Program-made: the position numbers and the translations under genes
The notes under the pieces: generated by a model
Told to the model about the DNA's origin: nothing
Seen by the model: the letters and a program-made list of their open reading frames with translations, nothing else
Databases searched by the model: none
Assembly: GCA_963810275.1 (NCBI GenBank)
Contig: CAWENF010000003.1
Coordinates: 32,001 to 96,000 of the forward strand
Reading direction: 5' to 3'
DNA from: an uncultured archaeon
GTDB taxonomy: Archaea; Thermoproteota; Bathyarchaeia; Bathyarchaeales; Bathycorpusculaceae
DNA: 64,000 nucleotides
Shown: one piece after another, positions 15,374-51,842 of the stretch
How positions within the stretch are numbered: the stretch's first letter is position 1
How the letters are laid out: each line of letters starts with the position of its first letter

Positions 15374-15482
15374 GCCCTATTCTGAAGCTCCGATGAACCC
15401 TCCTATCCGTATATACATTTAAAAAAGCTTATGGTAATAACACCTTTTAATATATAATTTTAAGAATAGAAGGAGATCTTAC

Positions 15483-18717: not shown

Positions 18718-18766
18718 TTCTTATCCCAAATATTAGGTAATAAAAGCCTAAGTAACTACACAAACA

Positions 18767-19930: not shown

Positions 19931-20234
19931 CTATGGACTTCACAAAACATTATGCCACGGCGCATTTTAATAAGGTTTTAGTCAAAAGTAAGAAAGAAAA
20001 ATCACAAACAAGATACCGGCACTAGACTCAAAATCCCAACCCGCAAAAAATAGATCCAAACACTAAAACAAAGTTGTTGTTGTTGCTGCATCTATTCACC
20101 CACTAGCTGTTGCAACAACTACAATCAATCCAAAATTATTCATCTTAACGCTGATAAGAAACATAATCTAACCATAACTCGAACCATCAGCAGTTACAGC
20201 TCCCTTAACAAACTCACGTAGACATCTCTCTCAC

Positions 20235-36200: not shown

Positions 36201-38328
36201 CAGGTGTAGTATAGATGTCGCTGAGTGAGAAGTCAAAAACCCCATCTGTTTCCAAATCACTATCGCTAACGCCAACAACAAAAGTAGCCGAGGAATTATG
36301 CGCATCAAGATAGAGAATATTTATAGGGTTAAAGACATCCCAAGCTCTTGTATCATAATCCCATCGCAATATCTGTGTTCCTTCGTTACCCACCAAAATC
36401 ATAAAATCAGCCCCAATGGAGTCGTTTTGTCCGGGATAATAGCTTTGAGGCATGCCTGTGCTTATGTTCTGGTCCGCATCAACCATTATGGCAGTATCGA
36501 TATCTTCAAGGGCATTGTTCCAGTTGTGGTAATAGTCCACTTTAAAGAATACAACTCCAGATTGGAGTTGGCTGTAAACTGCTTTGGGAGTACAGCCGAG
36601 GTTGTAGTCAGGGCCAGAAGCGATTTGCGTCCAGCCATCATTGTCGGGGTCAGCTACAACCAAATAATTTACAGCTAATTGGTTGTTGACGAAGCTGGTT
36701 TCGCTTTCGCCTAAAGCAGGCTTAACGTAGTAAGTCACGTTGTAGGTACCTAACCCCTTTGGAGTCCACGTGACTACTCTGGAGTCAGTGCGATAAGCCG
36801 CTAAATTGGATATTATATCAGAATCCACTTTTGTGCCGTTAACGATCAGGTAAAGTTCCACGTCTGTTTCATTCATTGAGCCCTTATTGACTGCTGTCAA
36901 ATTGAAGCTTTGAGCAAAACCCAGCATGGCATAGGAAGGTTTTTCCCAAGTCTGTGCTGCAAGGTCATGCTCGACAGGTTCTTCTTCTACGCCGCGTTGT
37001 GCGTTAACTAGACCATAGCCGAAGTAATTGTCAAAGCCAGGATCGCCAATGTCTTCGCAGGTTGCCTCCAGCTGGGCTCTTACGAACTGGTGCTGTCATG
37101 CTTGGGTACTGGCTCCAAATTAGGGCGGCCACGCCGGCCACGCCGGGGCAAGCCATAGATGTACCGCTTAGGCTAGCATAATTCAAGGGGTATCCGCGTT
37201 CGGTGTTTAAGGTTACAGTGTAATTTGGCATAGTCGAGAAGATACTAACACCGGGAGCGGCAACATCCACCCAGTTGCCGTAGGTGCTAAACGACGCCTT
37301 GCTATCATTTGATTCGTTGCAGAGACTGCTACTGCGTTTTCGTAGGCTGCGGGGTAGTGATATTGATCGGTGTTGTCGTTTCCCGCTGCCGCAATGAATA
37401 ACACACCATGCGAAGTCGCGTAGTCAACTGCAGCAGCTATTGTATCGCTTTGGTCGGTTCCACCCCAGCTGTTGCTTAAAATGTTGGCGCCTGCGTCGGT
37501 TGCATTAATAATGCAGTTAGCAAGGGTAAAATATGAACCGGACCCGGTTGCATCTAATCCTTTCTCAGCCATAATTTTGACGTTAGCTGTTCCAGCGATG
37601 CCTAAGCTGTTGTTTATGGTAGCGGCGATTATTCCTGCGCAGTGGGTTCCATGTCCATTATCGTCTTGGGGATATTGGTCATTGTTGACAAAGTCGTAAC
37701 CAAAAGGAATGTAGTTGTCTTGCAGGTCAGTATGGTTGTAGTCTATGCCTGTGTCGATGACTGCCACAAGCAAATCTGCGTTGCCCGAAGTGGAGTTCCA
37801 AGCAAAATCGACATTCATGCGTTTTGGTCCCCATTGTTGACTCCAAGAGGGGTCGTTTGGAGTTGAATCGATTCTGTATCTGCCGTTTGGCTCCACATAA
37901 TTTGGGATGCCAGAGTTATGCATTCGGTCAATAAAGCCAGAAGCTACAGAAACCGGCACTTTAACGACAAACGAGACTTTCTCACCCATAGAAATAGTGT
38001 CTATAACCTGTCCGCTGTTTTGGGAGATAAAACCAGTTACCTGGTTTTTGTTGGCGGCAGTGTTGTTTACTCCCACGATGAGTTCCAGCGTATTTTGGCT
38101 ATCGACGTAGCTATTGAGGTTCTCAGCATTTAAGTGAAGAGAAGCTTTTCCGCCTTTTAGGCCGTCAGAATGGTTTACACTTGAAAGATTACTTTGTAAC
38201 CCGCCGGAGTCACGATGAATATTAATCGAAGGAACGATTGCAGATGCAACAGCCACATTACTGCATGCAAGCAAGATGAATATTGTGAGTAAACATAATA
38301 GTTTAGAAAAACTATTTTGTGCCAACAT
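33287..38328 (-). CDS. Large surface-anchored S8 (subtilisin/thermitase-like) protease with CARDB-like, three Ig-like repeats, PKD, Pro/Thr linker and C-terminal TM; split by about four frameshifts
   Basis: Signal peptide; VAVIDTG (Asp), HGTHCAG (His), AAAGN, SGTSMA (Ser, in 37031-37270); continues through ORFs 35350-36927, 33741-35420 (WEFGD PKD) and 33287-33544 (TM + basic tail). Confidence 0.85.
34134..34958 (-). repeat. Three tandem ~92-aa Ig-like repeats (276/276/273 bp) inside the protease
   Basis: DKTNPLGSVKIDGG / DTTNPTGSITIDGG / DTTPPTGSIEINSG, each with FSND...W..F...K.W.L...G..TVY. Confidence 0.85.
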
Positions 38329-38563
38329 TACCCCGGTGACCTTGGCATTAGTCTTAAAAACATATTATTTATAAGAATCGCCTTTCCGTCTTTTAGAAAC
38401 ATTAAAGGTGAGTCTGTTCCTATTACGTTCAGAAACCCTCTTTGGGAAGGGAGAGGGTAGTTTAAGCTGCTTCACAGGCGCTCCTCAACGACGCTTAATC
38501 ACATGCAGGGATTTTAAAAGTTTAGCAAATCAACGCTTATTGAGAAATAGCTTAGAGAAAAAA

Positions 38564-39085
38564 TTAGATATGTTGACTAAGTAATTTCTGCATATCCAAA
38601 GCTGAAAGGTCAAGGTTACATTTCGGGCAGGTCTTCTGGATCTCCTGCTTTGCACCCACCTTGAGTGCTGTTCCACAGTGAGGGCAGAAGTAAGTCAGGG
38701 TTTGTCCTCTCTGAACTAATTCTGATATCAATTCATCTATCGTCAGCGGCTTGGAAGTGCTTTGTTTGATTTTTTTGCGTGAAGACTCAGCTTTTTTCTT
38801 CACCGCCTCAACAACCTGCGGGTCAGTGCTTGTAGTGAAGTACTCGCATCGAGCACTCTGCACATAGGGCTCGTCAAGGTCAGTACCGTATAAGCCGCAG
38901 GTGCCAGTCTGGAAAAAGACACAAGCCATACAGCTGGTTTTACGGTATTCTGCGTCAAGCGTTTTGTAGCAGGTGGGGCAAACTTCGACTTCTTTGCCGT
39001 CTTTAACTGTGGTCAATGCAATTCCACGGTATTGTTGTTTGCAAACGGGACAGGTTGGCTTTGGCATAGTTATCCCAGAAAACAC
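38564..39085 (-). CDS. Multi-zinc-ribbon hypothetical protein
   Basis: Five CxxC pairs (CPVC, CPTC, CMAC, CPHC, CPKC). Confidence 0.7.
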   Translation of the reverse strand: MFSGITMPKPTCPVCKQQYRGIALTTVKDGKEVEVCPTCYKTLDAEYRKTSCMACVFFQTGTCGLYGTDLDEPYVQSARCEYFTTSTDPQVVEAVKKKAESSRKKIKQSTSKPLTIDELISELVQRGQTLTYFCPHCGTALKVGAKQEIQKTCPKCNLDLSALDMQKLLSQHI

Positions 39086-39195
39086 TGATTTAACAGTTAT
39101 TTAATGTTAGCCCAAAAAATCTTTCACTCACATTTAAAAAAACATTTAGTCCCCAAAGCAACTGTTAAGGATAAACTAAATATCTAAAATGGGTA

Positions 39196-40065
39196 TTGTT
39201 TGGTATGGGATTTCAGCACCGGAAAAGCAAGCCAAACGGCAAAATAGGCGACTATGGCAAGTTTATGCGTAAAAAAGCCATTAAGAAACTTAAACAGCAA
39301 ACCAGCACCCACGAGAATGAACACCGAATTTTAACTCAAAAAGAAACATCAGAGATTACGCTTAAGAGGCTTCACATTTTGGGAAGCCAAAAATTTGGCG
39401 CCTCCCCTTACAGCGAACACTTTGAAAGGTGGCTTTTAAACATCGAGGCAGTAATAACCGAGTTCACTATGCACCCTGACATAGGTGTTGACGCCAAATT
39501 TCAAGATGAAACCAAAGAAGCATTGGATACGGTGAAGCGCCAGCTTATGGACCGAAAACAAGCCGAGGAGCTGATAAACCAGGACGCGGGGGAACTGGAA
39601 AAGTTTAGGGAACAACTTAAGCAAACGGATTTAGAGTACGCCATGAAAGCAATGGCCATAAAGGTGCGTAAGCGCAGAGAAACCAATCGGCTCAACACTG
39701 AAATCGAGTATCTTAAGCGCGAGCAGGACATGATTATCCGCTTGAAAACAGGGTTCTTCCGATTCAGATCTAAGCGGAAAAGGGAGGAAAAAGAGGCTCA
39801 AATTGTGCAGGACCTCAACAGCCGCCAAACCGAGTTAGAGTTGACGATTCTGGATTTCGCGGCAGAGCATAAAGAACTCAAAGACGACTATGACCAAAAA
39901 AGAGACCCACTATCCAAGCAGATTAAAAACCTGCAGAAAACCATCGGCATCTCCGAAACCGACGCCTCTTTGGAGGAGCGGTGGTTTGCCTGCGGAGCCT
40001 TAATCGACGCCGTGAACAGCTACCTGCAACGTAAAGCCGCCGCCTCACCTAAAGAGGAAACTTAG
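39196..40065 (+). CDS. Coiled-coil hypothetical protein
   Basis: 289-aa K/E/R-rich helical ORF. Confidence 0.65.
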   Translation: MFGMGFQHRKSKPNGKIGDYGKFMRKKAIKKLKQQTSTHENEHRILTQKETSEITLKRLHILGSQKFGASPYSEHFERWLLNIEAVITEFTMHPDIGVDAKFQDETKEALDTVKRQLMDRKQAEELINQDAGELEKFREQLKQTDLEYAMKAMAIKVRKRRETNRLNTEIEYLKREQDMIIRLKTGFFRFRSKRKREEKEAQIVQDLNSRQTELELTILDFAAEHKELKDDYDQKRDPLSKQIKNLQKTIGISETDASLEERWFACGALIDAVNSYLQRKAAASPKEET

Positions 40066-40491
40066 AAGTCATCTTTGTCTATGCGGTAGATGTACCAGTC
40101 GAGGCCTTTTGCTCTGTTTTTTGGATCGAAATCCTGCGCTGGCTTATTCCACTTATCGCTTTAGTCTGCTGCTTGATGAAATCGAACATTGCTTTGCTTA
40201 CCCCTGTTTGCGGTAGTCTTCTTGCAAAGATGTCTTCCAAAAGGGTTGGCAAGCTAGAAAGGTAGAGTACGTGAAGTAGTATGTGAAGTAGCCTTCCGGT
40301 TTACCGTTGATTGTGGCAATGTATGCATGGTATCGGGGTTGAGCGGGTTGATAATCGCGGCGCAAGCTGGTTCTTGCTTCTTGGTCTGCCGGTGGGAGGT
40401 GCTCGTATTCGGGGACATCAGCGATTAAGATCAGTAAGGTACCAAAGTTTTCGGCGGTTACTTGTGTGATCTGGACAGTGTTTTGTTGCAT
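40062..40491 (-). pseudogene. GNAT acetyltransferase (diamine acetyltransferase-like), frameshifted/degraded
   Basis: YEHL, YYFTYSTFLA, EDYRKQG; downstream frame fragments WNKPAQDF and DWYIYRIDKDDF*. Confidence 0.6.
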
Positions 40492-40667
40492 ACATGCACA
40501 TGTTTAGGATGGGACAAAAGCGCTATATTTTAGCAGAAAAACAGTGTTAAAGCTAAATGCAGGGCTTGCTTGAAGATTATTGCCAACCCAACTTCGCGTT
40601 TTTTTGAAAGGATTTAAAAACACTGTAAGGGCTAGCCAGAATTAACCCCGTTTGCAGTATTTTTTGG

Positions 40668-40699
40668 GTGGTGGCGGGGGTGGGACTTGAACCCACGAA
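40668..40699 (-). repeat. att site (copy of tRNA-Leu 3' end), distal boundary
   Basis: GTGGTGGCGGGGGTGGGACTTGAACCCACGAA identical to 49029-49060. Confidence 0.95.
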
Positions 40700-40774
40700 A
40701 GGACTTTTCTTTCCTGCTGAAAGAAAATCCCTGCCAAAAGAAAGGGCTTCATTTGGGTTTAGTTTGTTTTCCAT
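40668..40774 (-). CDS. Integrase N-terminal fragment int(N)
   Basis: MENKLNPNEALSFGRDFLSAGKKSPF-VGSSPTPATT reads through att in the same frame as int(C). Confidence 0.75.
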
Positions 40775-40787
40775 ATGTTATTTCTCC

Positions 40788-40853
40788 GTATCCTTATTTG
40801 ATACAATAATTAATCACTCAATAAACAAATATAAATGTATCACAATACGATAC
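40788..40853. promoter_or_regulatory. Paired palindromic operators GTATC-N7-GATAC around a TATA-like box between divergent int(N) and a small gene
   Basis: GTATCcttatttGATAC 40788-40804; GTATCacaatacGATAC 40837-40853. Confidence 0.55.
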
Positions 40854-40867
40854 TTAAGTGACTACCG

Positions 40868-41052
40868 ATGCATAAAGCCATCCTATCAGAACGTGAAAGA
40901 ACATCTACTAACCAAGTTCCTTGACGATGAACCCAATAACCGATGAAACCTTCCGCATGCTTAAAATGAGGATTAAGCGAAATTATCCCACCATAACTCA
41001 AGATTTTCAGCTAATCAGTCAACTATTAAATAAGCTGGAATCTTCCACATAG
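40868..41052 (+). CDS. Small helical protein (possible regulator/directionality factor), one frameshift
   Basis: MHKAILSERER/LLTKFLDDEPITDETFRMLKMRIKRNYPTITQDFQLISQLLNKLESST*. Confidence 0.5.
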
Positions 41053-41359
41053 GGCTTATTTTTACCATATTTTATTTTAGAATTTACTTCTTTAATTATT
41101 GGATACCTTTTCCTGAGGTTGGGGTATACCACCCTCTATCAGTCATCATATGAACCATAGAACATAGTAATTGATCTTTTGATTAGTGGATTATTAGAAC
41201 AGTAAGCAATCTATTATTTACTCATCAATTAACTTTGGCATCATTTCTCTCATAGTAATTATTTGACTATTGAATCCTATAGGGGGGTAGCATAGTTGTG
41301 GGAAAAGGTCATTGATTTAAGTTACTGGTTTTTCATTGCCTTATTTGAGCATAATTTAA

Positions 41360-41920
41360 CTAAAATTGTCTTTCTGTTACATGATATGTCCTTTGGTCAA
41401 GTATTTGATTATTTAAGACAATTATTGCAATGAAGTCACTGTTATAAAGTTCAGAAAAATACGTGTCCAAGTTAACTGTTACAGCTAATTTGGTATCGAT
41501 TCTTTCACTTGGCTGAATTATATCAAATATTTGTGTTTTGTTAAAGGGGTCATTAGCAACCTCAGACCTTCTGACAATTAGAGTTAGACCACTAAAGTCT
41601 TTGTCTTCAAAGTTTTGAATCGCTACATCAAAATTTATGGACATTGCCACTCCACCAGGATTGTACCAGCCGTAGGTTGAGTTGAATTTCACTATTTTTA
41701 CATTATATATTTGAGTGATTGTCGGGTTTGGAGAAGGTGATGTAATGTTGAGTCTTGGTGAAGGTGTTGTTGGTATAGTGGTTGAAGTTGGTGTCGGTTC
41801 GGTTTCTGGCGATAAATCGTGCGACTGATTATTCAGTAGGTTATCGAATGAAAAAACTATGATAACGCTTGAGATTAAGACAAGTGTGAGAGTGATTATA
41901 ATTGCCTTTTTTGCAGATAT
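41360..41920 (-). CDS. Membrane-anchored surface protein (N-terminal TM, Pro/Thr stalk, Ig-like domain); apparent ATA start
   Basis: Open frame extends upstream of the listed GTG: ISAKKAIIITLTLVLISSVIIVFSF...PTPTSTTIPTTPSP...; C-terminus paralogous to 42465-43050. Confidence 0.65.
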   Translation of the reverse strand: MSAKKAIIITLTLVLISSVIIVFSFDNLLNNQSHDLSPETEPTPTSTTIPTTPSPRLNITSPSPNPTITQIYNVKIVKFNSTYGWYNPGGVAMSINFDVAIQNFEDKDFSGLTLIVRRSEVANDPFNKTQIFDIIQPSERIDTKLAVTVNLDTYFSELYNSDFIAIIVLNNQILDQRTYHVTERQF

Positions 41921-42097
41921 CCGTAAGCCCTCTTAATTTTTGATTATTTATCTCCGAATAAAAGCATTCTTGTATAGACTTCTTGACTAAGACATAGTCA
42001 ACTTTTCTTGACTTAGATGGCAGACCAGATTTCATACATAATAGAATTTGATAATTCTTTTAGTCAAAGTGCGTGTTTTTGTTTTTCTGTTTTTTGT

Positions 42098-42280
42098 TTA
42101 TCTTTTTGGTATAAGTATATCTGTATAGCAGAACCAGCTATTGCGAATAATGAGAAGTAAAAGAACTCTTTTGATGCCTCTGTTGGCTTGGGATAAAGTT
42201 ATGTAACCTCCAATTATGGCAATTGCAAACAGGGATATTGAAAGTAAAGACAAAAAACGATATTGTTTTGTTAGAGGCAT
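42098..42280 (-). CDS. Short TM-containing ORF, possibly a truncated surface-protein cassette
   Basis: 60 aa with N-terminal hydrophobic helix; own operator-like motif upstream. Confidence 0.4.
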   Translation of the reverse strand: MPLTKQYRFLSLLSISLFAIAIIGGYITLSQANRGIKRVLLLLIIRNSWFCYTDILIPKR

Positions 42281-42464
42281 ATTTCCAATATTGTTTTATC
42301 TACTTTATCTAACTTGTTAATGTTACAAATACAAAAACTATACGGGTTTCTTGACTAAGCCACGTCACCGTTTCTTGACTATATAGGGGGTACACCTTGC
42401 CGTGGGAAAAGGTAAGTATTTTTAACTTTATTACTGGTTTTTCGGTGCCTTCTGATAACTAATC

Positions 42465-43050
42465 CTAATTTATAGAATAGTATCTTTCAGCTAAAACTTG
42501 CCCATCATAAATGAGGGTAACCTGATAAGTCAAATCTCTAGCCTCAAAATAATGGTTTAAATCGACAAACAAGTCACATCTTGCTTGAGCTGATTGATTT
42601 GGCAAAACATACGGAATTGTAGCTTCACATGAATATTCGTTTTTAGCTACCTGATGTTCAGCTAAATTATGAATCAATACGGTTGCATTATTCATTTGAA
42701 CTAACCCTGTATTTGTAACTAGAACGTGAAAAGAAATGATAGTTGAAACTCCAACTACTACACTTGGATAAATTGTGTCATAAGTTATTGAAGTTATGTT
42801 TGCCCTAGCAAACGCTTGGTTTTTGACATCTTCTATATCATTTTCGATGTCTGAAATTTGTCTGGTCAGATTGGCTATTTGACTTGTTAGATTAGCAATC
42901 TTTATGTCTTTTTCATTTATTTGAGTTTCAAGTTGGGTAATTTCTGAATCTTTCTGAAGAGACGCATTATAGTAGTATAGCGTGCCACTCAGTGAAGTTA
43001 CTAGTAGCATAATAATGGCGGCAGTTACGATAATTAATCTGACCTTTTTC
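42465..43050 (-). CDS. Membrane-anchored protein: TM, coiled-coil stalk, Ig-like C-terminal domain
   Basis: MKKVRLIIVTAAIIMLLVTSL TM, heptad ITQLETQINEKD...; ATG 43050 lies about 25 nt below a TATA-like box. Confidence 0.75.
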
Positions 43051-43170
43051 ATAGTTTTAGGTTTATTCAATTCAAATAAAAGCGTTCTTGTCCAGACTTC
43101 TTGACCAAGCCCTGTCAACGTTTCTTGACCAGAAAATAGAGGGTATACACACTATCACTGGAAAAGGTGG

Positions 43171-43315
43171 TTATGGATTTTTCCTTTTCCCACCATTTTC
43201 ATATTCACAGAAGCATTTGAATTCTTCTGGACTTCTGATTATCCCTCTATCCATTAAATTTTGGTAATCTTCAAAGTCATAAATGAAACCACATCTTCTT
43301 ACATCTTAGAAGCAT
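43171..43315 (-). CDS. Small Cys-containing zinc-finger-like protein (one frameshift)
   Basis: MLLRC/RCGFIYDFEDYQNLMDRGIIRSPEEFKCFCEYENGGKRKNP*; stop is 2 nt before a boundary site. Confidence 0.4.
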
Positions 43316-43358
43316 CTTAATTCTTACCACTGGCAACACCTAATAGAGAAAGAAATTA

Positions 43359-44775
43359 TCAGTTAGAGAATGGGTTAACTGAGAAGCTAACCCCATCTCC
43401 ATCGCTTGAAAGTTCCGACTGCTTAGTTTCCTTATGCGTTATCGGATAATACTTGAGTGCTACACCATCCTTCTCCTCTTTAAGCAATCCAGCACAAGCG
43501 AAATTCTTAAGCATACCACGTAAACGCTTGTCTGAACATCGTCTCTGCTTCTCATAAGAGTATATGTTATGTATTTCTTGAATCCTAAGCCCCGTACCTA
43601 AGTAGATTTCATTTTCGTTGAATGCTTTCTCGATTATTTTCCAGACTGCATATTCTTCAGGTGTCAAGCCTAAGCTGTTGCATTTTAGGATTGGTTCATA
43701 GACCTTTTTGGCATTTTCAATGTCAGATGAGTTAGCATAAATACATGAGTTGTCAGGTGTTCGGTCTCTATGTTGGAAGTTTAGTAAAGCCCAAGCTTCG
43801 GCAAGAGCATATAATCTAGGGAAATCACGTTGAGCTTTAGGTGCCAAGTTATCGATGTTTTTGAAGAACCAATCTTTCAAGTTCTCCATATCTTCAGCTT
43901 TAAACAGCACCTTCTTGATGTTTGCTTCCTTAATACGTTGTACCCGTTGCTTTAAGCCAACTCTTGAGGGTTCAGTTCTCATACCATTCGTTAAACTTGA
44001 GGTCAGTCATTTTTCTAGCTTGTAACTCAATGCCTTTTTTGATTTTGTCAGGATTATCACTTGGACTTAACAGATAGTTTCGGCTAACCTCTTGCTCATC
44101 CATTTCGCCAAATGCTGATGCAAACAGGGCAGTAAAGTATCCTTTAATCAGGACTTTTTTGGTTCGGTGGCTTCCATTCCCTGCCTTGTCTGTAACCAAG
44201 TAAGTGGATATCCTGTTTCCTGAGTTGTCATGACTTAACAGGCTTCTTATGTTCTTTAGCAGTTCATAGTTTGGCAAATCGTAGAAGACCACTATCTTCT
44301 TTGATAAATCAATGAAGTATGCTGTATGGCGTTTAAGGTCATTCCATTCTTCCCAAACTTCTTTTGGGTCGCCTTTCTTTGCACATTTGCTCATATCTAT
44401 TGGCTGTAGATTGCGGTCATCAACTGGAATAGCATTTGAACTGTAGATTAAGGCTCTAGGCGTTGAATCATTAATACCCACGATTGTATCAGAGTTAGGA
44501 TGTCGGAAGTACCATAAGCTTTCTGTTATGTTGAGGGTTTTGCCTACTGATGATTCTCCTGTTAAGACAACGTTTCTTTGTTCCTCTTCGGTGAATGTCA
44601 AGACGTTGACTAGGAATAGGGGTATCTTGACGTTTTCATCTTCATAGACTGTGGTGGATAATGCTCTGTTTAATTCGTCAAAGCCAATTTCATTGTTGAG
44701 GTATTGGTCGATTAGCTGTTGTCTTTCTCGAGTCTGGGCGTCATTATCAGTTGGATTCATCGTTTGCATCTCCAT
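43359..44775 (-). CDS. Rep-like P-loop ATPase/helicase (MCM-related AAA+) with C-terminal wHTH; frameshift at ~43975 splits it
   Basis: Walker A TGESSVGKT, DEQEVSR arginine-finger region, 'QRDFPRL..L..AWALLN..HR', C-terminal HTH; the two ORFs overlap by 11 nt. Confidence 0.65.
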
Positions 44776-44956
44776 TTTTTATGCAGTCTAACAACATTTG
44801 CTTATACTCACTGTACTGCTCCATCTGCGTTAACACGTCAACGTGGTAACACAAAGGGGAACAGTATTTTTGTGCAGGGCTAGCGGAAACAAAATTCATA
44901 CCGCAATTCCTGCATTCTTTTTTGGATTTAATTTTTTGCTTGCTCAATTTTATCAC
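44747..44956 (-). CDS. Small zinc-finger protein
   Basis: CRNCG..F......QKYCSPLC. Confidence 0.65.
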   Translation of the reverse strand: MIKLSKQKIKSKKECRNCGMNFVSASPAQKYCSPLCYHVDVLTQMEQYSEYKQMLLDCIKNGDANDESN

Positions 44957-45029
44957 AAAATATATATCCTCAAGGAAGTATAGATGGTATAAAGTTTATA
45001 CTTAGTATCAACATGTGTATCTTAGAGGC

Positions 45030-46001
45030 AATGGAATGGATTAGACCAAAAGGAGAGAAGTCAAGACTATCAAGGAATTGAACGTCAATATTGCAGAGAA
45101 GACATTCTAATAACATTACTTGATGGCGATTTTGGATTCAATGAACTTGTCAGAAGATTTGAACATTCAACTGAAAAAATCAAGCAAGGAAAAAGAACCT
45201 ACAGCAGAGGTACAGTGTATAAATATCTTAGTGATTTAGTTGACGAAAATGAAAATTCAATATAGCGATAACAAGCTTGAATACGGAAAGTTGAGGACTG
45301 ACCTTATTCCTTAACTTCAGATGGACGAAAGGATTGACTGAAAAACTAACTTACCCCTTAGACATAATTCGCAGATGAATATGTTACACGTAAAATTCCG
45401 AGAATATATAAGTTCTAAAAAACCACCTTTGTATTTAACAGATGAAGGAAGGGAAGAAGCAAGAAAACAAGGATTATTTAATTCATTTAAAACAACTACC
45501 TTTTCCGCTTATAGAACGAGTTATTCTTAGCTACAAATACAAGGTTTTTGAAGCATCTTATTAGAATTTCAGACAAACCACCGATGAAAACATTCCGTTA
45601 TACTTCGCCTATAGGAAAAAACAAGGGAATTTAAACGAATTCCTATACTCATGGGTGAGTACATTCAAGATTCCTAAAAAAGAACTTACTAAAGCGGAAG
45701 AAAGAAGATTGCTTAAAATGAAGTTGCCACAGCAAATAAAAGAAAGACACTCGAATGGATAATTGAAAGTCATAGATGATGTACTGAGAGATTATAATAT
45801 TTTCAGATAGTGAGATTCTTGAGATGTGGTTGAGAACATGGTTTACTAATAGCTAATGATTCTGAGCCATTTAGAAGTGAAAAAACTGAGCATACTCAAG
45901 ACGAGATAGAGCAAATGAAACGCAAGATTAGAGAGCATATGATAATTAATGAGAATTTAGAAAACGGTATACTATCAAATGTTAAACATCTTTTCCCGTG
46001 A
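45030..46001 (+). pseudogene. Winged-helix transcriptional regulator, multiply frameshifted
   Basis: Fragments: EDILITLLDGDFGFNELVRR...YSRGTVYKYLSDLVDE; PYSLTSDGRK; LYLTDEGREEARK; boundaries approximate. Confidence 0.55.
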
Positions 46002-46346
46002 CAGGGTATACCCACCCTATGGTATCTTTTCCTGCGACATGGTGTACCCTCCCCCCATCAACCTCTCCAAAAATGAAGCTAATATGCTTAACATCCACAG
46101 GCATATCTGAAAAAATTAAGCTATGGCATCCCATATAATCGTAAATGCCCCTGCTAACTAGCTGAGGGGAGTGGTTTTGATATCGCTATATATGTTAAAC
46201 TTCCCTAAGGCAAATAGAGACTGAAAAGCTTACCATGCCTACATTATAAAGAGTCATGATTAGACCCTTTTCACGGGGTTGAGTGTACCTACCCTGCGAA
46301 GTTTTTTATTTATTTTCATTGTATTAAACAATATCTTGGTGGTTCA

Positions 46347-47203
46347 ATGAGTTGGTTTTCTGAGCGAAAAGGGATAACAAAAGCTAAGAACAGAAATTCA
46401 ACTTGAGTCGATTGATAATTGCTTTGCAAAACCAACTCTGGAATCAGTTGGAACTTTTCTACTGGAAAGAAAATAACAGAAAATATTATACTAAAGATGG
46501 CTATTTTAGTGAGCTAATAGAATTCCTCTGGAACGATTTCTATAAGGAACCTATTGATGAGATTCCACATAAATGGAGCGATTGTCATCGTCTAATTAGA
46601 GAACGGTTTTTTGAAAGCCAATGGTATCGCAGTATACGACTTTACTTGAAGCAGTAGTTAAACTCAAAAGCTATGATACTATGGAATTTCAAAATGCATG
46701 TAACCTTATTCTGGAAAAGGGACTATCAGCTTATCGGTTTATAGATGGAAAGATAACTGAGATAACGTCTAAGGAAGAGATTTCCGAAATTGAAGAAGCA
46801 ATAAATTCTCCAATCGCAGTTGTCCAAACTCATCTGAAAAAAGGTTTAGATTTATTTTCTGATAAGCAGTCTCCCGATTACCTTAATTCAATAAAAGAAT
46901 CAATATCGGCCGTTGAAGGTCATTATGTAAATTGATAACTAAAAAATCAAAACGCAACATTAGGTGAAGCACTCAACGCTATAGAACGCCAAACTGGTGG
47001 AACTATCTTTCATCCAGCATTAACTGGAGCATTTCATAAATTATATGGTTATACAAATGATGCAGATGGAATAAGACATGGTCTTAAAAGATGAGTAAAG
47101 TAAACTGCAGGCTTCTGAAGAGGCGAAGTTTATGTTGGTTACTTGTTCAGCTTTTGTTAACTATCTTATCGCTAAAGCATCAAAGGCAGGCATCAAATTA
47201 TAG
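46347..47203 (+). CDS. AbiJ-NTD4-like + HEPN-type defence protein, several frameshifts
   Basis: Reconstructed MSWFSERKG...LQNQLWN...AYRFIDGKI...DYLNSIKESISAVE...HPALTGAFHKLYGYTNDADGIRHGL...EAKFMLVTCSAFVNYL. Confidence 0.72.
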
Positions 47204-47284
47204 TATAGACCTTTTCACAGGGTAGGGTGTACATACCCCTAGCAATTTGATAAAATTATTAAATAAAGACTAGACATTAACCGA

Positions 47285-47851
47285 TTGATTGCAATGTGGA
47301 TAACACCGAAACATAGACATACAGACTTTCATGACCCATTAACGTTTGATGATAAAGTAACGATTTTTTATGAACAAACTCTAGGATGGCAGTTAGACAT
47401 AGCTGAGCAAGTAATCGATAACATAAACCATAGTGGATTTGGTGCTCTGTCAATTGCAGTAAGCTATTTTGAAATGATATCTAAATATCGAAGCGGTTTC
47501 TTAGGTAGGCAATCAAGGCATCATTTTAAACAAGGGGTACATATTGTCTTTCCAATACTTAGAATAGCACCGCAAGAGGTAATCGATAGCCTTCTCGACA
47601 TTTTTTATGATGGTTGTCGTTGTGGTCTATACCATAGAGGGCTTACTAACCCTCAAGTGATGCTTACGGGAGAATTAGAGACACCAATTGCTTACAATGA
47701 CTCAATTCATCAACTGATTATAAACCCTAGGAGACTGATTACTGCATTAGAGATGGATTTAGAGAATTACATTAGACTCCTACTAAATCCAACTAATGTT
47801 CAATTAAGAATTAACTTTGAACAACGTTTTGATTATGATTCTTCCCACTAA
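47285..47851 (+). CDS. HEPN-like protein (R-x4-H), putative RNase toxin
   Basis: FGALSIAVSYFEMI helix and YDGCRCGLYH motif. Confidence 0.6.
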   Translation: MIAMWITPKHRHTDFHDPLTFDDKVTIFYEQTLGWQLDIAEQVIDNINHSGFGALSIAVSYFEMISKYRSGFLGRQSRHHFKQGVHIVFPILRIAPQEVIDSLLDIFYDGCRCGLYHRGLTNPQVMLTGELETPIAYNDSIHQLIINPRRLITALEMDLENYIRLLLNPTNVQLRINFEQRFDYDSSH

Positions 47852-47887
47852 TAGGGGGTGTATACCCTCTACTATGGGAAAAGGTAG

Positions 47888-48001
47888 TTACCAATCATCA
47901 TCTAATTCTTCAGGGAATAAAGGGTCATCAAATAGAATTAAACCATCTCCTTGACTATCTTCAATTGAATTTCTTTCTAAGTTGCTTATCGGATTCTTCA
48001 T
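47888..48001 (-). CDS. 37-aa acidic peptide downstream of integrase
   Basis: MKNPISNLERNSIEDSQGDGLILFDDPLFPEELDDDW*; stop 2 nt before a boundary site. Confidence 0.4.
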   Translation of the reverse strand: MKNPISNLERNSIEDSQGDGLILFDDPLFPEELDDDW

Positions 48002-48136
48002 TATATGTGCTAGTTGATTGTCCAGCCGTTGACTAAGACTATGAAAGAATTTAATGCCAATCAATATGATGAGAGACTAAAAAGCCTAAGAGAAAAAAGA
48101 ATATGATGAAGGATAAAAAGTCAAACATCCAATCAC

Positions 48137-49057
48137 CTAACAGATAGGTTTTGGCTTGTTTAGGCAATATCCCCACTCAGTTTTTGTTACTAAGCTATAG
48201 CCGTCAGCAAGATATCTGGTTAGTTCTTCTTTGCTGTCTGCATAAACGACATTGTATTCGTTAGCTTTGACCCATGATTTCACAATATGGATATATCTCA
48301 ATGTGTTTGTAATGTTGCAATGCCTAGCAAATCTTTGTGTATCCACAATGTCTTTGGTTTTGAAGTACTGCCATGAAATCGCAAAATGTCTAAAGGTATG
48401 GAAGTGAATTCTTAGAAAATCCTGATTACCTGTTTCTTTGGCTAATCGTTTCTTATAATCACGGATGTTATCGTTTAGTGCTTCAGAAGTGAGTACTTCG
48501 GCAAAGATTCTTTGACCTTTCTTTGGAATTTGTAGAAGCATCGCAAATAATTCATCACTTATGTGATAAGTCAGAGTTCTATGACCTTTATTTCCAACAA
48601 TCATTATAGTTTTATTTTGAGCGTTGAAGTCTTTCCAAGTTAATCGCCAAACTTCACCTGCACTTGCACCAGTTTCAACAGCAACCTTGATTCTTGTTCT
48701 ACAATTCAAGTTACGAACACGATAAAGAAATTGCTTAACCATTTCAGGACTTGGAACATACATCTCTTCGTTATCATATGCTTTGAAGGGTGGTTTCTCG
48801 AAAGGAATACTTAGATACTCAGCATATTGTTCAACAACATCCAAAGCGTTCTCCTTTGTACCATCTTTCCATGCTTTTGACAGAACTTGATTAGCCATCT
48901 CTTGAGGAGAACCACTAAGTTGCTTGAGATAACGCATTTTTCGCTCTATAGTGCTTTCTCTATTCCCTTTCTTGTTCAGTAACCAAACTGCAAAAGATAC
49001 TGTTTGATTCACTAACGGGGGTTCTAGAGTGGTGGCGGGGGTGGGACTTGAACCCAC
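48137..49057 (-). CDS. Tyrosine recombinase/integrase, catalytic fragment int(C)
   Basis: ETGASAGE (Arg-I position is Ser), KG, HTFRH, RH..ITNTLRY; frame begins inside the att/tRNA 3' end. Confidence 0.9.
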   Translation of the reverse strand: MGSSPTPATTLEPPLVNQTVSFAVWLLNKKGNRESTIERKMRYLKQLSGSPQEMANQVLSKAWKDGTKENALDVVEQYAEYLSIPFEKPPFKAYDNEEMYVPSPEMVKQFLYRVRNLNCRTRIKVAVETGASAGEVWRLTWKDFNAQNKTIMIVGNKGHRTLTYHISDELFAMLLQIPKKGQRIFAEVLTSEALNDNIRDYKKRLAKETGNQDFLRIHFHTFRHFAISWQYFKTKDIVDTQRFARHCNITNTLRYIHIVKSWVKANEYNVVYADSKEELTRYLADGYSLVTKTEWGYCLNKPKPIC

Positions 49058-49060
49058 GAA
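49029..49060 (-). repeat. att site overlapping tRNA-Leu T-arm/acceptor/CCA
   Basis: 32-bp identity with 40668-40699. Confidence 0.95.
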
Positions 49061-49223
49061 GGCCTGCGCCAGAGGATCTTAAGTCCTCCTCCATATCTTA
49101 GGGGCAAATTGTTTTTATCTGGGATGAAGGCCTGCGCCAGAGGATCTTAAGTCCTCCTCCATATCTTAGGGGCAAATTGTTTTTATCTGGCCGCCTATTT
49201 AGACCTGGCTCGGATACCCCGCC
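49030..49223 (-). tRNA. tRNA-Leu(TAA), CCA-encoded, non-canonical intron at position 22/23 plus an internal 65-bp duplication
   Basis: Acceptor GGCGGGG/CCCCGCC, anticodon arm GAGGA-CTTAAGA-TCCTC, long variable arm, GTGGG-TTCAAGT-CCCAC; relaxed BHB GTCT/AGAT + AAA bulge + TAGG/CCTA; exons 49199-49223 and 49030-49092. Confidence 0.88.
49058..49190. repeat. Perfect tandem duplication, 65 bp x2 with 3-bp spacer
   Basis: 49058-49122 = 49126-49190. Confidence 0.95.
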
Positions 49224-49254
49224 ACCAGCAACCCAATAGAGTCAACAATGGACT

Positions 49255-49268
49255 GTTTAAGTTTTTTG
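49255..49268 (-). promoter_or_regulatory. BRE/TATA-like promoter of tRNA-Leu
   Basis: CAAAAAACTTAAAC about 35 nt upstream of the tRNA 5' end. Confidence 0.5.
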
Positions 49269-49381
49269 CATCGAACACCAGCCAACTTGAGAAGGACAAC
49301 GTGATGCGCCAGAAAAGTGGGAGAACAAGTCAGCCAAACAAAAGCCTCGCGCAGAGGTCAAGTTTAACGACTTAAAGGAAT

Positions 49382-49603
49382 TTACATTTGGACGGTCTTT
49401 AGTCGCTCGATTTCTTTGTCTAAGTGCTCAACAGCGGCTAGCAGCCTCTTCTTTTTGCGCTCCATCAGCTCAACCAGTTCTTCTTTTGTGGGGGACGCAT
49501 CATCGCCATCTTCATACCCATGCCGCCGCCCATCCAGGGCATGTGGTGTGACATGTCATGAGCCGCCCCAAGGACCTTGGGCGCCCATTTTTTGCCAATC
49601 CAT
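49382..49603 (-). CDS. Small Met/His/Gly-rich coiled-coil protein (DUF5320-like), two compensating indels
   Basis: MDWQKMGAQGPWG/HDMSHHMPWMGGGMGMKMAMMRP/TKEELVELMERKKKRLLAAVEHLDKEIERLK. Confidence 0.5.
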
Positions 49604-50355
49604 AAAATTTCACCCCAGCCAAAAATCGTATAAAAGCGTTCATGTTCACTGCGGGTTCCGTTAACTTATCCTTATGTGACTACCCAAGGGAGTATACAGT
49701 GCTTTTTGTTGTTCCCTGTTACCAACACATGATTATATTTGATCATTGGGAGTATTGTATTGCCGGTTGAGGAACACGCTTCACGGCATCATACGGGGAC
49801 TGATCTTCCGCAAACAAGTAAAGACCTGATCTGCGATGACTTCAAAGAAAAAGCTTTAAAATGAGCGAGAAGGCAGCCGATGAGTGTCAGTGGGGTTTAG
49901 ACTCAACCCGGCAACCCTCCCTTCTTTTTGCAAAATTTTTTCGGCTTGAAGCTGTTCTTTGCAGCTCAAATAATATTGGGCATCGTTGTGAAAAGTTGTC
50001 TTGTTCTATGATATATTGTAATGCCTGTAATTTTTTAATTTTAATAGTGTCTTAAGCGCGTATTTATCTTCTATATTTACCGACCTATACTCGGTTGTCA
50101 ATTGATGCATATTTTCTAAGCGGACCTATCAAGCCGCCACAATTACAGTAAAATGGTTTAATGCCGCATTTAAAAGAAAAACTTATTATCACACTTAAAT
50201 ATACGAAAGAAAGGCTGCAACCCCAAAACGGAGATTATAGCTTTTGACGCAATCTTTTGGTGCCGTTAAAAACGTCACGCCCAATAAGACAAAAAGTAAA
50301 ATGTCATCGCTCACCCGTCAGCAACCATAAAAACACCCAAAACCAAAACAATAGT

Positions 50356-50730
50356 ATGCCAAAAATACATTACACCCAACACAAAGTGAACGAAGTTTTA
50401 GAAAACCTAAACCCACAACAGCTGCAAACAGTTGAGAATCTACGGCAACTCATAAAAAACGCCTTGCCCGCAGCTGAGGAAACAGTACGACAAGGCAGAA
50501 TTACGTTTAGAACCCATGACAGAGACCTCGTCTGGTTTACAGTCACCAAAAGCCATGTGGATGTGGAGTTCGCCAGGGGCTCAAGCCTCAGCTCACCGCT
50601 TCTAAAAACAAGAGGCACCGCAGAGGAAAACCCGAATATACGCCATATCGAAGTAAACAACTTCACCGAAGTAAATTATGAACTTGATAGGCTTGTTCGA
50701 AAAGCGGAATCCGTGAGTTTTGAGCATTAA
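50356..50730 (+). CDS. DUF1801 (YdhG-like) protein
   Basis: LRQLIKNALPAAEETVRQG, HVDVEFARG..L, RHIEV; ATG at 50356 preferred. Confidence 0.75.
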   Translation: MPKIHYTQHKVNEVLENLNPQQLQTVENLRQLIKNALPAAEETVRQGRITFRTHDRDLVWFTVTKSHVDVEFARGSSLSSPLLKTRGTAEENPNIRHIEVNNFTEVNYELDRLVRKAESVSFEH

Positions 50731-50773
50731 CCAAAAACCTAAGTTACTCGCTTCTTCAACCAACAACTAAGCC

Positions 50774-51769
50774 TTAAACCGTTTTGAGGCTGCCCTTCTG
50801 CAATGGGTCACCGTCACGATAGCTGCAGATAACGCCATATTTTCTAACACACTCCAAGCATAAAGCGGGATCACAAAGGGTTGTACTCAAGTAGCGTTCG
50901 CCGCCGTCAGGAGCAATACACACAATCACGCCTCCGCTGAGTTCTTTAGCTAACTGCTGAGCAACATAAAATGCTGCGCCGCTGCTTGGACCCACAAACA
51001 AGCCTTCCTCCAAAGCCAAAAGCCGAGCCGCATCATCCGCCACCGCCGGCTTGACATAGCGGATTTCGTCAACCATTTGAGGATTCCAGATTTTAGGCAA
51101 ATGCTGGAGCCTAAGGTTTTTGAGACCCTGAATAGAACCGTCGCCTTCTGGTTGTACACCGATAACTTTCACTTTTGGGTTAAGCTCTTTTAGGCGCTTG
51201 GACAAACCCATAACGGTGCCTGTAGTCCCCATGCCCGCCACGACATGCGTTACTTCGCCGTCGGTGTCACGCCAAATCTCAGCTGCGGTAGTCTCTTAAT
51301 GGGCAAGTACGTTGGCTTGGTTAGCGAACTGGTTGGGCATAAAATACTTATCAGGATTTTTAGCAGCGATTTCATGCACTAAATCTTCTGCACCGTCCAT
51401 GCCCTTGTCGCCGTCGCTTAGAAGCACTTTGGCTCCAAGCGAGATGAGGATATGTCGGCGCTCCATACTCATGGTTTCAGGCATCACAATCACAGCATCA
51501 TAGCATTTAGCTCTACAAACAAGCGCTATACCGATGCCAGTGTTGCCGCTGGTGGCTTCAATGACAATTTTGCCCGCTGTTAGCCGACCGGATTTTTCGG
51601 CTTGCTCAATCATGTAGAGGGCGATACGATCTTTTATGCTGCCGCCTGGGTTAGTTTTCTCAAGTTTAACGCATACTTCCACGGCTGGGTTTTGATTTAA
51701 GTGTTGGACTTTAACTAGTGGTGTGTTACCAATGTAGTTGAGTATGGTTTTGCCGTTCACATTTGGCAC
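50774..51769 (-). CDS. Cysteine synthase (CysK/CysM family) with an in-frame TAA at 51296-51298
   Basis: IGNTPLV, NPGGSIKDR (PLP Lys), EATSGNTGIG, GMGTTGT, GPSSGA, PDGGERYLST; both ORFs are in the same frame, with TAA where Tyr of 'AHY.TT' is expected. Confidence 0.88.
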
Positions 51770-51842
51770 CGTATAGCTGGGTAGAGTTAGCGCTGGGGCG
51801 CCTATAAAACCTATCCAGATAGGTACCCCAAAATGGGGATGG

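What the first reader, a model, noticed from the sequence alone, without database searches (positions are those of the whole stretch)
41105..47885. Cassette-like array: nine ~33-bp boundary sites punctuate the cargo genes of an archaeal integrative element
Seen: a conserved bipartite site recurs nine times inside the element and was not noticed elsewhere in the window. In consensus orientation: ACCTTTTCCTGAGGTTGGGGTATACCACCCTCTAT (41105,+), ACCTTTTCCCACAACTATGCTACCCCCCTAT (41279,-), ACCTTTTCCCACGGCAAGGTGTACCCCCTAT (42383,-), ACCTTTTCCAGTGATAGTGTGTATACCCTCTAT (43136,-), ATCTTTTCCCGTGACAGGGTATACCCACCCTAT (45988,+), ATCTTTTCCTGCGACATGGTGTACCCTCCCCCCAT (46024,+), ACCCTTTTCACGGGGTTGAGTGTACCTACCCT (46264,+), ACCTTTTCACAGGGTAGGGTGTACATACCCCTA (47209,+), ACCTTTTCCCATAGTAGAGGGTATACACCCCCTAT (47851,-). 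Two conserved arms flank a variable 6-8 nt spacer. Copies hug stop codons: 2 nt after stops at 43171 and 47888, 5 nt after 47203, and overlapping 47851. Most intervals hold one or two accessory genes with their own promoter. Established: this architecture resembles integron attC arrays and Acinetobacter pdif modules, but the sequence matches neither the attC RYYYAAC/GTTRRRY ends nor XerCD dif. Inference: an undescribed site-specific gene-capture/shuffling system, possibly using the element integrase or host XerA.
Basis: partly seen in the sequence, partly recalled or inferred. Interest (0 to 1): 0.9.

Follow-up and report, generated by a model that had tools for sequence, protein, structure and literature searches.

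The report
Gene-end punctuation motif in Bathyarchaeia mobile elements
A conserved 35-base motif sits right after the stop codon of nearly every gene unit in an integrated archaeal mobile element and marks where related elements have swapped genes, but it looks more like a shared gene-end signal than an integron-type capture site.

Summary
All nine sites exist, and the motif is far above chance: 8 pattern matches against 0.15 expected. In the 2.26-Mb genome the 20 best profile hits all lie in two integrated elements.

The motif is oriented and about 35 nt long: stop codon, ACCTTTTCC, a short CCCA-N4-TGGG inverted repeat, TGTACC, then a C-rich tail. It follows a co-oriented gene and precedes the next gene start by 40-99 nt.

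It occurs in 54 of 120 genomes of the genus, almost only in Bathyarchaeia. It is found in plasmid-like elements, head-tailed proviruses and single secreted-protein genes.

Homology between related elements breaks at the sites, and site-bounded modules recur in different contexts. However, I found:
- no fixed crossover point;
- no inverted recombinase arms;
- no co-occurring dedicated recombinase;
- many solitary sites.

My best reading is a transcription-unit boundary element. Paired with conserved promoter motifs, it would act as the homology patch for modular shuffling, like PeSL cassettes of T4-type phages. An integron-like capture system remains possible, at about 15%. Function was not tested, because no RNA data exist.

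The parts
41104..41139 (+). site S1, after small gene 5 (convergent with S2)
41277..41310 (-). site S2 (lacks GTRTAC), after the minus-strand gene ending at about 41360
42380..42414 (-). site S3, about 50 nt after the stop of the 217-aa membrane/coiled-coil gene
43134..43169 (-). site S4, 2 nt after the stop of the last small ORF of the Rep operon
45987..46021 (+). site S5, after the PadR-like gene 6; in tandem with S6
46023..46057 (+). site S6, tandem partner of S5; orthologous to the single site in L002
46264..46296 (+). site S7 (subtype TTTTCACGGGG), start of the cargo slot
47208..47240 (+). site S8, after the broken PDC-S32/AbiJ-like gene
47851..47886 (-). site S9, 2 nt after the stop of gene 3. 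Its far end overlaps the stop of the convergent 188-aa gene. The region 47836-47888 is an imperfect palindrome.
40661..40699 (.). left att repeat (copy of a tRNA 3' part)
   Evidence: D4 (92% over 39 nt)
49022..49060 (.). right att repeat, at the tRNA-like gene 49030-49223(-)
48137..49057 (-). tyrosine integrase whose reading frame starts inside att (SSV-type arrangement, probable)
   Evidence: PF00589 E=1.4e-14
40577..40774 (-). ORF at the other end that shares the att-encoded peptide GSSPTPATT (putative Int(N) part)
40868..41049 (+). gene 5 (60 aa in the second element), here read in three frames
41360..41930 (-). variable gene, unrelated to the gene at this place in the second element
42098..42280 (-). 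60-aa membrane protein gene with its promoter block, 90% identical to the second element
42465..43118 (-). 217-aa membrane-anchored coiled-coil protein (variable module)
43359..44775 (-). Rep-like gene (Walker A; about 505 aa in relatives; no Pfam family), here in two overlapping frames
44747..44956 (-). 69-aa zinc-ribbon protein, first gene of the Rep operon
45044..45334 (+). N-terminal part of the PadR-like core gene 6 (64% to L002 over 97 aa); the rest is broken
46348..47203 (+). cargo: PDC-S32 / AbiJ_NTD4 candidate defence gene, split over several frames
47285..47851 (+). cargo: 188-aa protein of no known family
47888..48064 (-). core gene 3 (small membrane protein with an acidic tail)

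Best explanation
The sites are copies of an oriented gene-end element of about 35 nt. Its layout is: stop codon, ACCTTTTCC, a short inverted repeat (CCCA-N4-TGGG), TGTACC, then a C-rich tail. One copy closes almost every transcription unit of an 8.4-kb element integrated at a tRNA gene. The next gene starts 40-99 nt further on, often behind a conserved promoter-side motif.

I think it works as a boundary of transcription units: a terminator or insulator, probably read by a sequence-specific factor. The site, with the promoter motif behind it, is the only sequence shared by otherwise unrelated accessory genes. It is therefore also where related Bathyarchaeia mobile elements recombine, so genes are gained, lost and replaced in blocks that begin and end at sites.

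Shown here: position, orientation, distribution, and the breakpoints at sites. Inferred: termination of transcription, and that the exchanges are driven by short homology rather than by a dedicated recombinase.
For: Position and orientation:
- 40 of 104 sites have a co-oriented ORF of at least 50 codons ending within -12..+10 nt of the site start. The figures are 9 of 104 for the opposite strand and 4 of 104 for random places.
- The stop codon abuts or overlaps the site in 19 cases: TAG|ACC 10 times and TGA overlapping 9 times.
- Divergent promoter regions in the window (44957-45050, 40775-40867) have no site. Operons have one site at their end.
- Convergent genes have facing sites (S1/S2) or share one (S9).
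- 59 of 101 downstream co-oriented ORFs start 40-99 nt after the site, and only 4 start closer.
- GTCAAGAAA (up to 1 mismatch) lies within 110 nt downstream of 33 of 135 sites, against 5 of 135 upstream. A second recurrent motif also lies downstream.

Sequence:
- The four T's are invariant in 139 of 139 aligned sites.

Breakpoints at sites:
- 77 of 427 HSP ends lie within 25 nt of a site centre, against 6 of 427 random places.
- 42 of 82 site-bearing intergenic regions hold a breakpoint, against 49 of 315 site-free ones.
- The breakpoints have no fixed position.

Distribution:
- Sites occur in different kinds of mobile element. These include Rep/integrase elements and terminase-bearing proviruses.
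- They occur singly after secreted-protein genes in 2 IMG/VR contigs and in 32 of 44 virus and metagenome loci.

Published precedent:
- In T4-type phages, conserved composite terminator/promoter motifs mediate just this kind of shuffling (abstracts of PMC2839356 and PMC4122927).
Against: - No transcript data exist, so termination is untested (no RNA holder listed).
- The T run is only 4 long. A second run of 5 T's follows in only 18 of 135 sites.
- Only the short CCCA/TGGG repeat has weak pairing support: 75.3% paired against 72.7% in shuffles, and 16 against 7.6 double changes. That signal is confounded by subtypes. The two other candidate hairpins do no better than shuffles.
- The arms are conserved more strictly than an intrinsic terminator would need. 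Host genes do not use the motif. A specific reader protein must therefore be assumed, and none was identified.
- In L007 an 8.6-kb replacement is flanked by two sites that share an unusual left and central part but differ in their tails. That is what insertion by recombination within the site would leave.
- In high-identity pairs the variable part of a site went with the downstream DNA in 2-3 of 6 cases. It never clearly went with the upstream gene in 3 cases. This hints at preferred joints near the left arm.
Confidence: 0.5

Rival explanations
1. Dedicated site-specific recombination. The sites are substrates of a recombinase (the element integrase, host XerA or an unknown enzyme). That enzyme inserts and excises promoter-gene cassettes, as in integrons or pdif modules.
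For: - Modules bounded by sites recur in different contexts.
- The number of modules between conserved flanks varies: W against L001, L002, L004, L006, L009 and L013; L007 against L010; L011 against L021.
- The two sites flanking the L007 insert share left and central parts.
- Both L007/L010 junctions fit a joint at the left arm.
- Sites are confined to mobile DNA.
- Sites abut stop codons, as attC sites often do.
Against: - There is no single crossover position. Other pairs break after the right arm or beyond the site: L017/L018, L015/L066, L019/L055 and L016/L005.
- The arms are not inverted repeats.
- Sites lie in both orientations within one element.
- Core genes keep their own site subtypes.
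- Many sites are solitary.
- No recombinase tracks the sites. Integrase homologues occur in 103 of 120 genomes, whether or not they have sites.
- No serine recombinase or Y1 transposase was found in G000.
- No whole contig with a site has a terminal overlap: 0 of 35.
Confidence: 0.15
2. Operator or roadblock sites of a DNA-binding regulator, like the stoperators of mycobacteriophages. A repressor bound at oriented sites between genes would silence the accessory genes of integrated elements.
For: - There are many asymmetric sites per element, in one orientation relative to transcription and in short intergenic spaces.
- The arms are strictly conserved.
- A PadR-like regulator is a core gene of the window's type of element.
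- Stoperators are a published precedent (PMC9283540; only the start of the abstract was seen, in the listing).
Against: - The PadR-like gene travels with the Rep element (Rep in 12 of 120 genomes), while sites occur in 54 of 120.
- Sites also occur in proviruses and as solitary copies lacking that gene.
- No common regulator gene was seen among the site-bearing loci.
Confidence: 0.15
3. An RNA-level 3'-UTR element, serving mRNA stability, processing or localisation of transcripts for secreted proteins, rather than a DNA signal.
For: - The site is always on the sense strand directly behind the stop codon.
- 54 of 131 upstream ORFs end in a membrane anchor with a basic tail.
- Sites fold somewhat better than shuffles: mean z -1.3 over 105 sites.
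Against: - There is no convincing covariation.
- No Rfam family matches.
- 77 of 131 upstream genes are not of the anchored class.
Confidence: 0.1
4. A selfish miniature repeat (REP/REPIN- or MITE-like) that spreads by transposition into intergenic DNA.
For: - The unit is short and partly palindromic, lies between genes, and sometimes occurs in tandem or in facing pairs (S5/S6, S1/S2).
- Some pairs share both flanks' neighbours but carry different site subtypes.
Against: - There are only 20 copies, all inside two integrated elements.
- No Y1 transposase was found in the genome, which is 92.6% complete.
- Copies have a fixed phase to stop codons and a fixed orientation to genes.
- No target-site duplications were seen in the flanks printed.
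Confidence: 0.05

Closest known systems
PeSL cassettes (promoter-early stem-loop) of T4-type phages (abstracts of PMC2839356 and PMC4122927 read)
   Same: Both are small conserved intergenic regulatory motifs that flank non-essential genes in plastic regions. In both, insertions, deletions and replacements between close relatives begin and end at them. Here the site is often followed by a conserved promoter-side motif, which gives a composite terminator-side/promoter-side unit.
   Different: This is in archaea, not phages of bacteria, and the sequence is unrelated. Terminator and promoter activity are untested here. No mini-circles were seen. The motif is shared by several kinds of mobile element and by solitary genes.
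Integron attC sites and gene cassettes
   Same: Both have one site at the 3' end of each cassette-like unit, often touching the stop codon, with unrelated genes between sites and variable arrays beside an integrase gene.
   Different: This motif has no R''/L''-L'/R' palindrome and no conserved attC cores. Sites lie in both orientations. The genes have promoters. No IntI/attI platform is present. No fixed crossover point exists.
pdif modules of Acinetobacter plasmids (XerC/D sites); recalled, no paper read
   Same: Both are short sites that bound accessory-gene modules found in different contexts.
   Different: dif-like sites have two inverted 11-bp arms around a 6-bp spacer and alternate in orientation around a module. 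Here the arms are unlike each other, and sites in an array are direct repeats.
Stoperators of cluster A mycobacteriophages (PMC9283540; start of the abstract seen in the listing)
   Same: Both are many asymmetric sites spread over a mobile genome, between genes, in one orientation relative to transcription.
   Different: Stoperators are shorter and are bound by the phage's own immunity repressor. No matching regulator is known here.
Morons of tailed phages (recalled)
   Same: Both are independent units of promoter, gene and terminator inserted between other genes. The single site after a secreted-protein gene in virus contigs L073 and L074 fits this.
   Different: Moron terminators are not one conserved sequence shared across elements.
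Recombination motif of Sulfolobus conjugative plasmids (pNOB8/pING family; recalled; not found in the library)
   Same: Both are short motifs repeated in archaeal plasmids at the borders of rearranged segments.
   Different: That motif has a different sequence, host and plasmid type, and no reported tie to gene ends. I could not check the source.

Membership tests
integron attC | Imperfect palindrome (R''-L''...L'-R') that folds as a single strand, with conserved core sites at both ends | tested here: not met
   The left arm (ACCTTTTCC) and right arm (GGTGTACC) are not complementary. Only a 4-bp repeat has weak support. Two other helices do no better than shuffles. The attC core motifs themselves were recalled, not searched for.
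integron attC | Array beside an IntI integrase with attI and a common promoter; cassettes mostly promoterless and in one orientation | tested here: not met
   Sites lie on both strands within one element. The next ORF starts 40-99 nt after the site in 59 of 101 cases, with conserved promoter-side motifs. The integrase sits at a tRNA att site. IntI-specific features were not tested.
integron attC | Cassette boundaries at one fixed crossover point in the site | tested here: not met
   Boundaries fall at the left arm, after the right arm, and beyond the site.
Xer/dif-type sites (pdif modules, archaeal XerA dif) | Two inverted binding arms around a 6-8 bp spacer | tested here: not met
   The alignment of 139 sites shows unlike arms. 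The definition of a dif site is recalled.
Xer/dif-type sites (pdif modules, archaeal XerA dif) | Binding and recombination by Xer | not testable with these tools
   This needs protein and DNA assays.
PeSL-like composite regulatory cassettes | Conserved intergenic motif flanking non-essential genes in plastic regions | tested here: met
PeSL-like composite regulatory cassettes | Indel and replacement breakpoints between close relatives lie at the motifs | tested here: met
   77 of 427 HSP ends against 6 of 427 random. 42 of 82 site-bearing regions against 49 of 315 site-free regions.
PeSL-like composite regulatory cassettes | The motif holds an active terminator and an active promoter | not testable with these tools
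   Only position speaks for it. No RNA run was listed.
PeSL-like composite regulatory cassettes | Mini-circles formed by exchange between neighbouring motifs | tested here: inconclusive
   0 of 35 whole contigs with a site have a terminal overlap. The laid contigs were too short to tell.
stoperator-type operator sites | Many asymmetric sites in one orientation relative to transcription | tested here: met
stoperator-type operator sites | A cognate repressor encoded by the same element | tested here: inconclusive
   A PadR-like gene is in the core of the window's type of element. It is absent from other site-bearing loci. Rep-type elements occur in 12 of 120 genomes against sites in 54 of 120.
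REP/REPIN elements | Many copies spread over the chromosome, with a RAYT (Y1) transposase | tested here: not met
   All 20 copies lie in two integrated elements. PF01797 has 0 matches in G000, while the control genomes respond.

The most novel reading that the evidence does not exclude
The sites are the recombination substrates of an undescribed archaeal cassette system. Promoter-gene modules would be cut out and inserted at the conserved left arm, next to the stop codon, by a recombinase not yet recognised. This would let Bathyarchaeia plasmids, proviruses and chromosomal islands trade surface-protein and defence genes.
Probability: 0.15. Interest if true: 0.9.

Novelty: new variant of a known kind. 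Interest (0 to 1): 0.55.

Why it matters
Bathyarchaeia are abundant and uncultured, and almost nothing is known about how their genes are regulated or exchanged.

This motif would be a first handle on three things:
- It may be a sequence-specific signal for the end of transcription units in an archaeon. Archaeal termination is otherwise known mainly as plain runs of T.
- It is a practical marker for finding accessory modules and mobile DNA in Bathyarchaeia bins.
- It appears to be the joint at which surface-protein and defence genes are reshuffled among different kinds of mobile element.

If the joints turned out to be made by an enzyme, this would be a new gene-capture system in archaea.

Tried and rejected
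- **Loose pattern in relatives.** The pattern matched about as often as its reversed control in 101 relatives, so genome counts were useless. Only visible clusters were followed up.
- **Rfam.** At E<=1 on window 38000-52000, only two sub-threshold tRNA/tmRNA-clan hits appeared, both at the att sites. No RNA family matches the motif.
- **ARAGORN.** It found no tRNA in the window. The tRNA-like gene at the right att is seen only through the repeat and the Rfam hits.
- **Column-pair mutual information.** No Watson-Crick covariation was found.
- **Named helices.** Only the 4-bp CCCA/TGGG repeat rose slightly above the controls.
- **CRISPR-repeat mimicry.** A crude scan found no CRISPR array in G000, so the idea could not be tested.
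- **Second T run after the site.** This is not a consistent feature.
- **Sequencing runs.** No RNA holder was listed. Three DNA runs of one study were listed, held as contigs with small shares.
- **Laying those runs.** This gave short contigs only. Several stop in or beside sites or beside the promoter repeat. Assemblers break contigs at repeats anyway, so I draw nothing from this.
- **Circular contigs.** None were found.
- **A recombinase tracking the sites.** Integrase homologues are nearly universal. Serine recombinase and Y1 transposase families have no match in G000.
- **Fixed crossover at the left arm.** I held this model for a while, then dropped it as a general rule.
- **Literature.** The Bathyarchaeia virus paper PMC10848311 was searched for six terms and the passages read; it does not mention such a motif. 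Searches found no description of it. Supplements were not opened.

Full report
**1. Observation**

The nine sites are real. The pattern CTTTTC-N6-14-GTRTAC matches 8 times in the window against 0.15 expected. A sequence model built from 19 copies finds nine places in the whole 64-kb window, all between 41104 and 47886.

An nhmmer profile run over the whole genome (2.26 Mb, 28 contigs) puts its 20 best hits (score >=13) in only two places. These are C3:73104-79886 (the window's element, 9 hits) and C21:213015-226938 (11 hits). The next best hit scores 10.5. The motif is therefore not a genome-wide repeat.

**2. The element**

The sites lie in a low-GC island (0.33-0.39 against 0.43-0.49 in the flanks). 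The island is bounded by a 39-nt direct repeat at 40661-40699 and 49022-49060. That repeat is the reverse complement of a tRNA 3' part (sub-threshold tRNA-clan hits).

A tyrosine integrase (PF00589) begins inside the right repeat. An ORF at the left end carries the same repeat-encoded peptide. This suggests an SSV-type integrase split by integration; I rate that as probable, not proven.

Comparison with relatives gives this backbone:
- integrase, then small gene 3, then a site;
- a cargo slot;
- a PadR-like gene;
- a zinc-ribbon gene and a Rep-like gene of about 505 aa with no Pfam family, then a site;
- membrane or secreted proteins, each with a site;
- a facing site pair;
- small gene 5.

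Cargo in the slot looks like defence genes. The window holds a PDC-S32/AbiJ_NTD4 gene. L004 holds a DUF4062 protein. L001 and L006 hold a protein with a weak HEPN-like match.

**3. Anatomy of the site**

From 139 aligned copies, the layout is (G)ACCTTTTCC, then C-A-N4-T-G-G, then GTGTAC(C), then a C-rich tail. The four T's are invariant. The left arm and the G-T-A of the right arm are above 90% conserved.

The arms are not inverted repeats of each other. The short repeat CCCA/TGGG around the variable four bases has weak support. It is 75.3% paired against 72.7 +/- 0.7 in shuffles, with 16 against 7.6 double changes, but these mostly come from one subtype. Two other candidate helices do no better than shuffles.

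Column-pair analysis shows no Watson-Crick covariation. Sites fold a little better than shuffles (mean z -1.3).

**4. It is a gene-end element**

- 40 of 104 sites have a co-oriented ORF of at least 50 codons ending within -12..+10 nt of the site start. The figures are 9 of 104 for the other strand and 4 of 104 for random places.
- In 19 cases the stop codon touches or overlaps the first base.
- The next co-oriented ORF starts 40-99 nt after the site in 59 of 101 cases, and closer in only 4. That leaves room for an archaeal promoter.
- Divergent promoter regions in the window have no site.
- Operons carry one site at their end.
- Convergent genes face each other across two sites (S1/S2) or share one. 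S9 lies in an imperfect palindrome.
- Downstream of the sites lie recurrent promoter-side motifs. GTCAAGAAA (up to 1 mismatch) follows 33 of 135 sites, against 5 of 135 upstream. A second motif follows 11-17 sites.

**5. Distribution**

The model finds sites in 54 of 120 genomes of the genus, in clusters.

An exact 20-base pattern of the commonest subtype occurs in 29 stretches among 185,579 species genomes. By label these are:
- 23 Bathyarchaeota or Bathyarchaeia;
- 2 'Crenarchaeota archaeon';
- 2 'uncultured archaeon';
- 1 Methanocella MAG;
- 1 Chloroflexia MAG.

The same pattern occurs in 2 IMG/VR contigs and in 42 metagenome stretches.

Carriers are of several kinds:
- Rep/integrase elements like the window's; Rep occurs in only 12 of 120 genomes;
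- proviruses with a large terminase;
- arrays of secreted-protein genes at the same tRNA;
- single genes in virus contigs.

32 of the 44 virus and metagenome loci hold just one site. Of 131 upstream ORFs, 54 end in a membrane anchor with a basic tail, and 77 do not.

**6. Sites and mosaic structure**

The window's element and the second element in the same genome share five blocks. The ends of those blocks fall at S2, S3, S5, S7 and S9.

Over 22 loci:
- 77 of 427 ends of HSPs of at least 200 bp lie within 25 nt of a site centre, against 6 of 427 random places.
- 42 of 82 site-bearing intergenic regions hold a breakpoint, against 49 of 315 site-free ones. This contrast is inflated by host flanks and by the sites' own conservation.

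Single cases:
- A 148-aa gene with both flanking sites is 96% identical in L003 and L015, in different neighbourhoods.
- Two 97%-identical proviruses (L007, L010) differ by a replacement, 8.6 kb against 1.3 kb, whose two joints lie at the left arms of sites.
- An array at one chromosomal place has five sites in L011 and two in L021.

**7. No fixed crossover**

I compared the flanks of all pairs among 135 distinct sites. This gave 36 pairs alike only upstream and 22 alike only downstream.

In the high-identity cases the joint lies:
- at the left arm (L007/L010 at both joints; W/L001 at S2);
- between the loop and the tail (L003/L015);
- beyond the right arm (L017/L018, L015/L066, L019/L055, L016/L005).

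The variable part of a site goes with the downstream DNA somewhat more often than with the upstream gene. The numbers are small, and the upstream-only class is dominated by old paralogues.

Core genes keep their own site subtype across elements. This fits descent with the gene rather than turnover by a recombinase.

No recombinase tracks the sites.

**8. Reading**

The simplest account is a boundary element of transcription units that travels with accessory modules. Being the only shared sequence, it serves as the patch where related elements recombine.

This is what has been described for PeSL promoter/terminator cassettes of T4-type phages (abstracts read). It also fits the moron concept (recalled).

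Two features remain unexplained:
- The arms are strictly conserved and host genes do not use the motif. This calls for a specific reader protein, which I could not identify.
- The L007 insert is flanked by sites with the same unusual left half. This keeps a site-directed mechanism alive.

I put the boundary/shuffling reading at 0.5. The alternatives are a dedicated recombination system at 0.15, a stoperator-like operator at 0.15, an RNA-level element at 0.1 and a selfish repeat at 0.05.

**9. Limits**

- There are no transcript data.
- The only DNA runs are short contigs.
- ORFs were called by a simple longest-frame rule.
- The window's assembly seems to carry single-base indels. Gene 5 reads in three frames at 100% identity to its paralogue, and metagenome contigs lack one base at 40929/40936, 43298 and 43978. 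Some 'broken' genes may therefore be intact.
- Supplements of papers were not opened.

Noticed in passing
window 41997-42013, 42348-42380, 43098-43130 (read on the minus strand): A second conserved motif lies between a site and the next gene. It consists of paired GTCAAGAAA(C) boxes, partly as the palindrome GTCAA-N6-TTGAC. It follows 33 of 135 sites in many genomes. It is probably the operator/promoter of the secreted-protein genes. Membrane-anchored ArsR-type HTH genes lie nearby in other loci.
   Followed up: partly
loci L005, L007, L016 and others, 50-90 nt after sites: A second recurrent promoter-side motif (TCTTTTAAGCAAGGTCAA) follows 11-17 of 135 sites and occurs almost never upstream of them.
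   Followed up: no
window 40868-41049, 43298, 43972-43982, 45044-47203: Several genes are split by single-base frame changes. Gene 5 reads in three frames at 100% identity to its copy on C21. Metagenome contigs lack one base at 40929/40936, 43298 and 43978. This points to assembly indel errors rather than decay, at least in part.
   Followed up: partly
window 49058-49190: A perfect tandem duplication of 68 bp (two 65-nt copies, 100% identical) lies inside or beside the tRNA-like gene at the right att site (D2). It may be an intron-like insert or an assembly artefact.
   Followed up: no
G000 contig C21:212600-228150 (L001): A second element of about 15 kb has 11 sites, a different integrase (281 aa) next to another tRNA, a Rep gene with about 20 stops, and five large secreted beta-helix/PKD-type proteins. 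Its left end is 90% identical to the window element's left end, including an Int(N)-like remnant. It looks like a recombinant of two element types.
   Followed up: partly
window 47836-47888: The S9 region is an imperfect palindrome of about 50 bp: two site-like halves head to head, sharing the right arm. Its self-complement score is 12, against -6.4 +/- 5.4 in shuffles, and the best shuffle also reached 12. It could serve both convergent genes.
   Followed up: partly
L066 (contig binned as Chloroflexia) and L047 (binned as Methanocella): Sites occur on contigs of two non-Bathyarchaeia bins. L066 carries the same site-flanked modules as L015, with flank scores of 110-118 out of 120. The cause is either mis-binning or transfer; this was not resolved.
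   Followed up: partly
window 1-20000: Another long low-GC stretch (0.34-0.40) lies at the start of the window. It holds no site. It was not examined.
   Followed up: no
window 43359-44775 and L009:5146-6678: The Rep-like protein (about 505 aa, with a Walker A motif) matches no Pfam or PHROG family. Close relatives occur in only 6 genomes of the genus and more distant ones in 6 more. It may be a new replication protein family.
   Followed up: no
window 45497-45509: A left-arm-only look-alike (ACCTTTTCC with no right arm) lies inside the broken PadR-like gene region (I6, I11-I13). It was not found by the profile.
   Followed up: no
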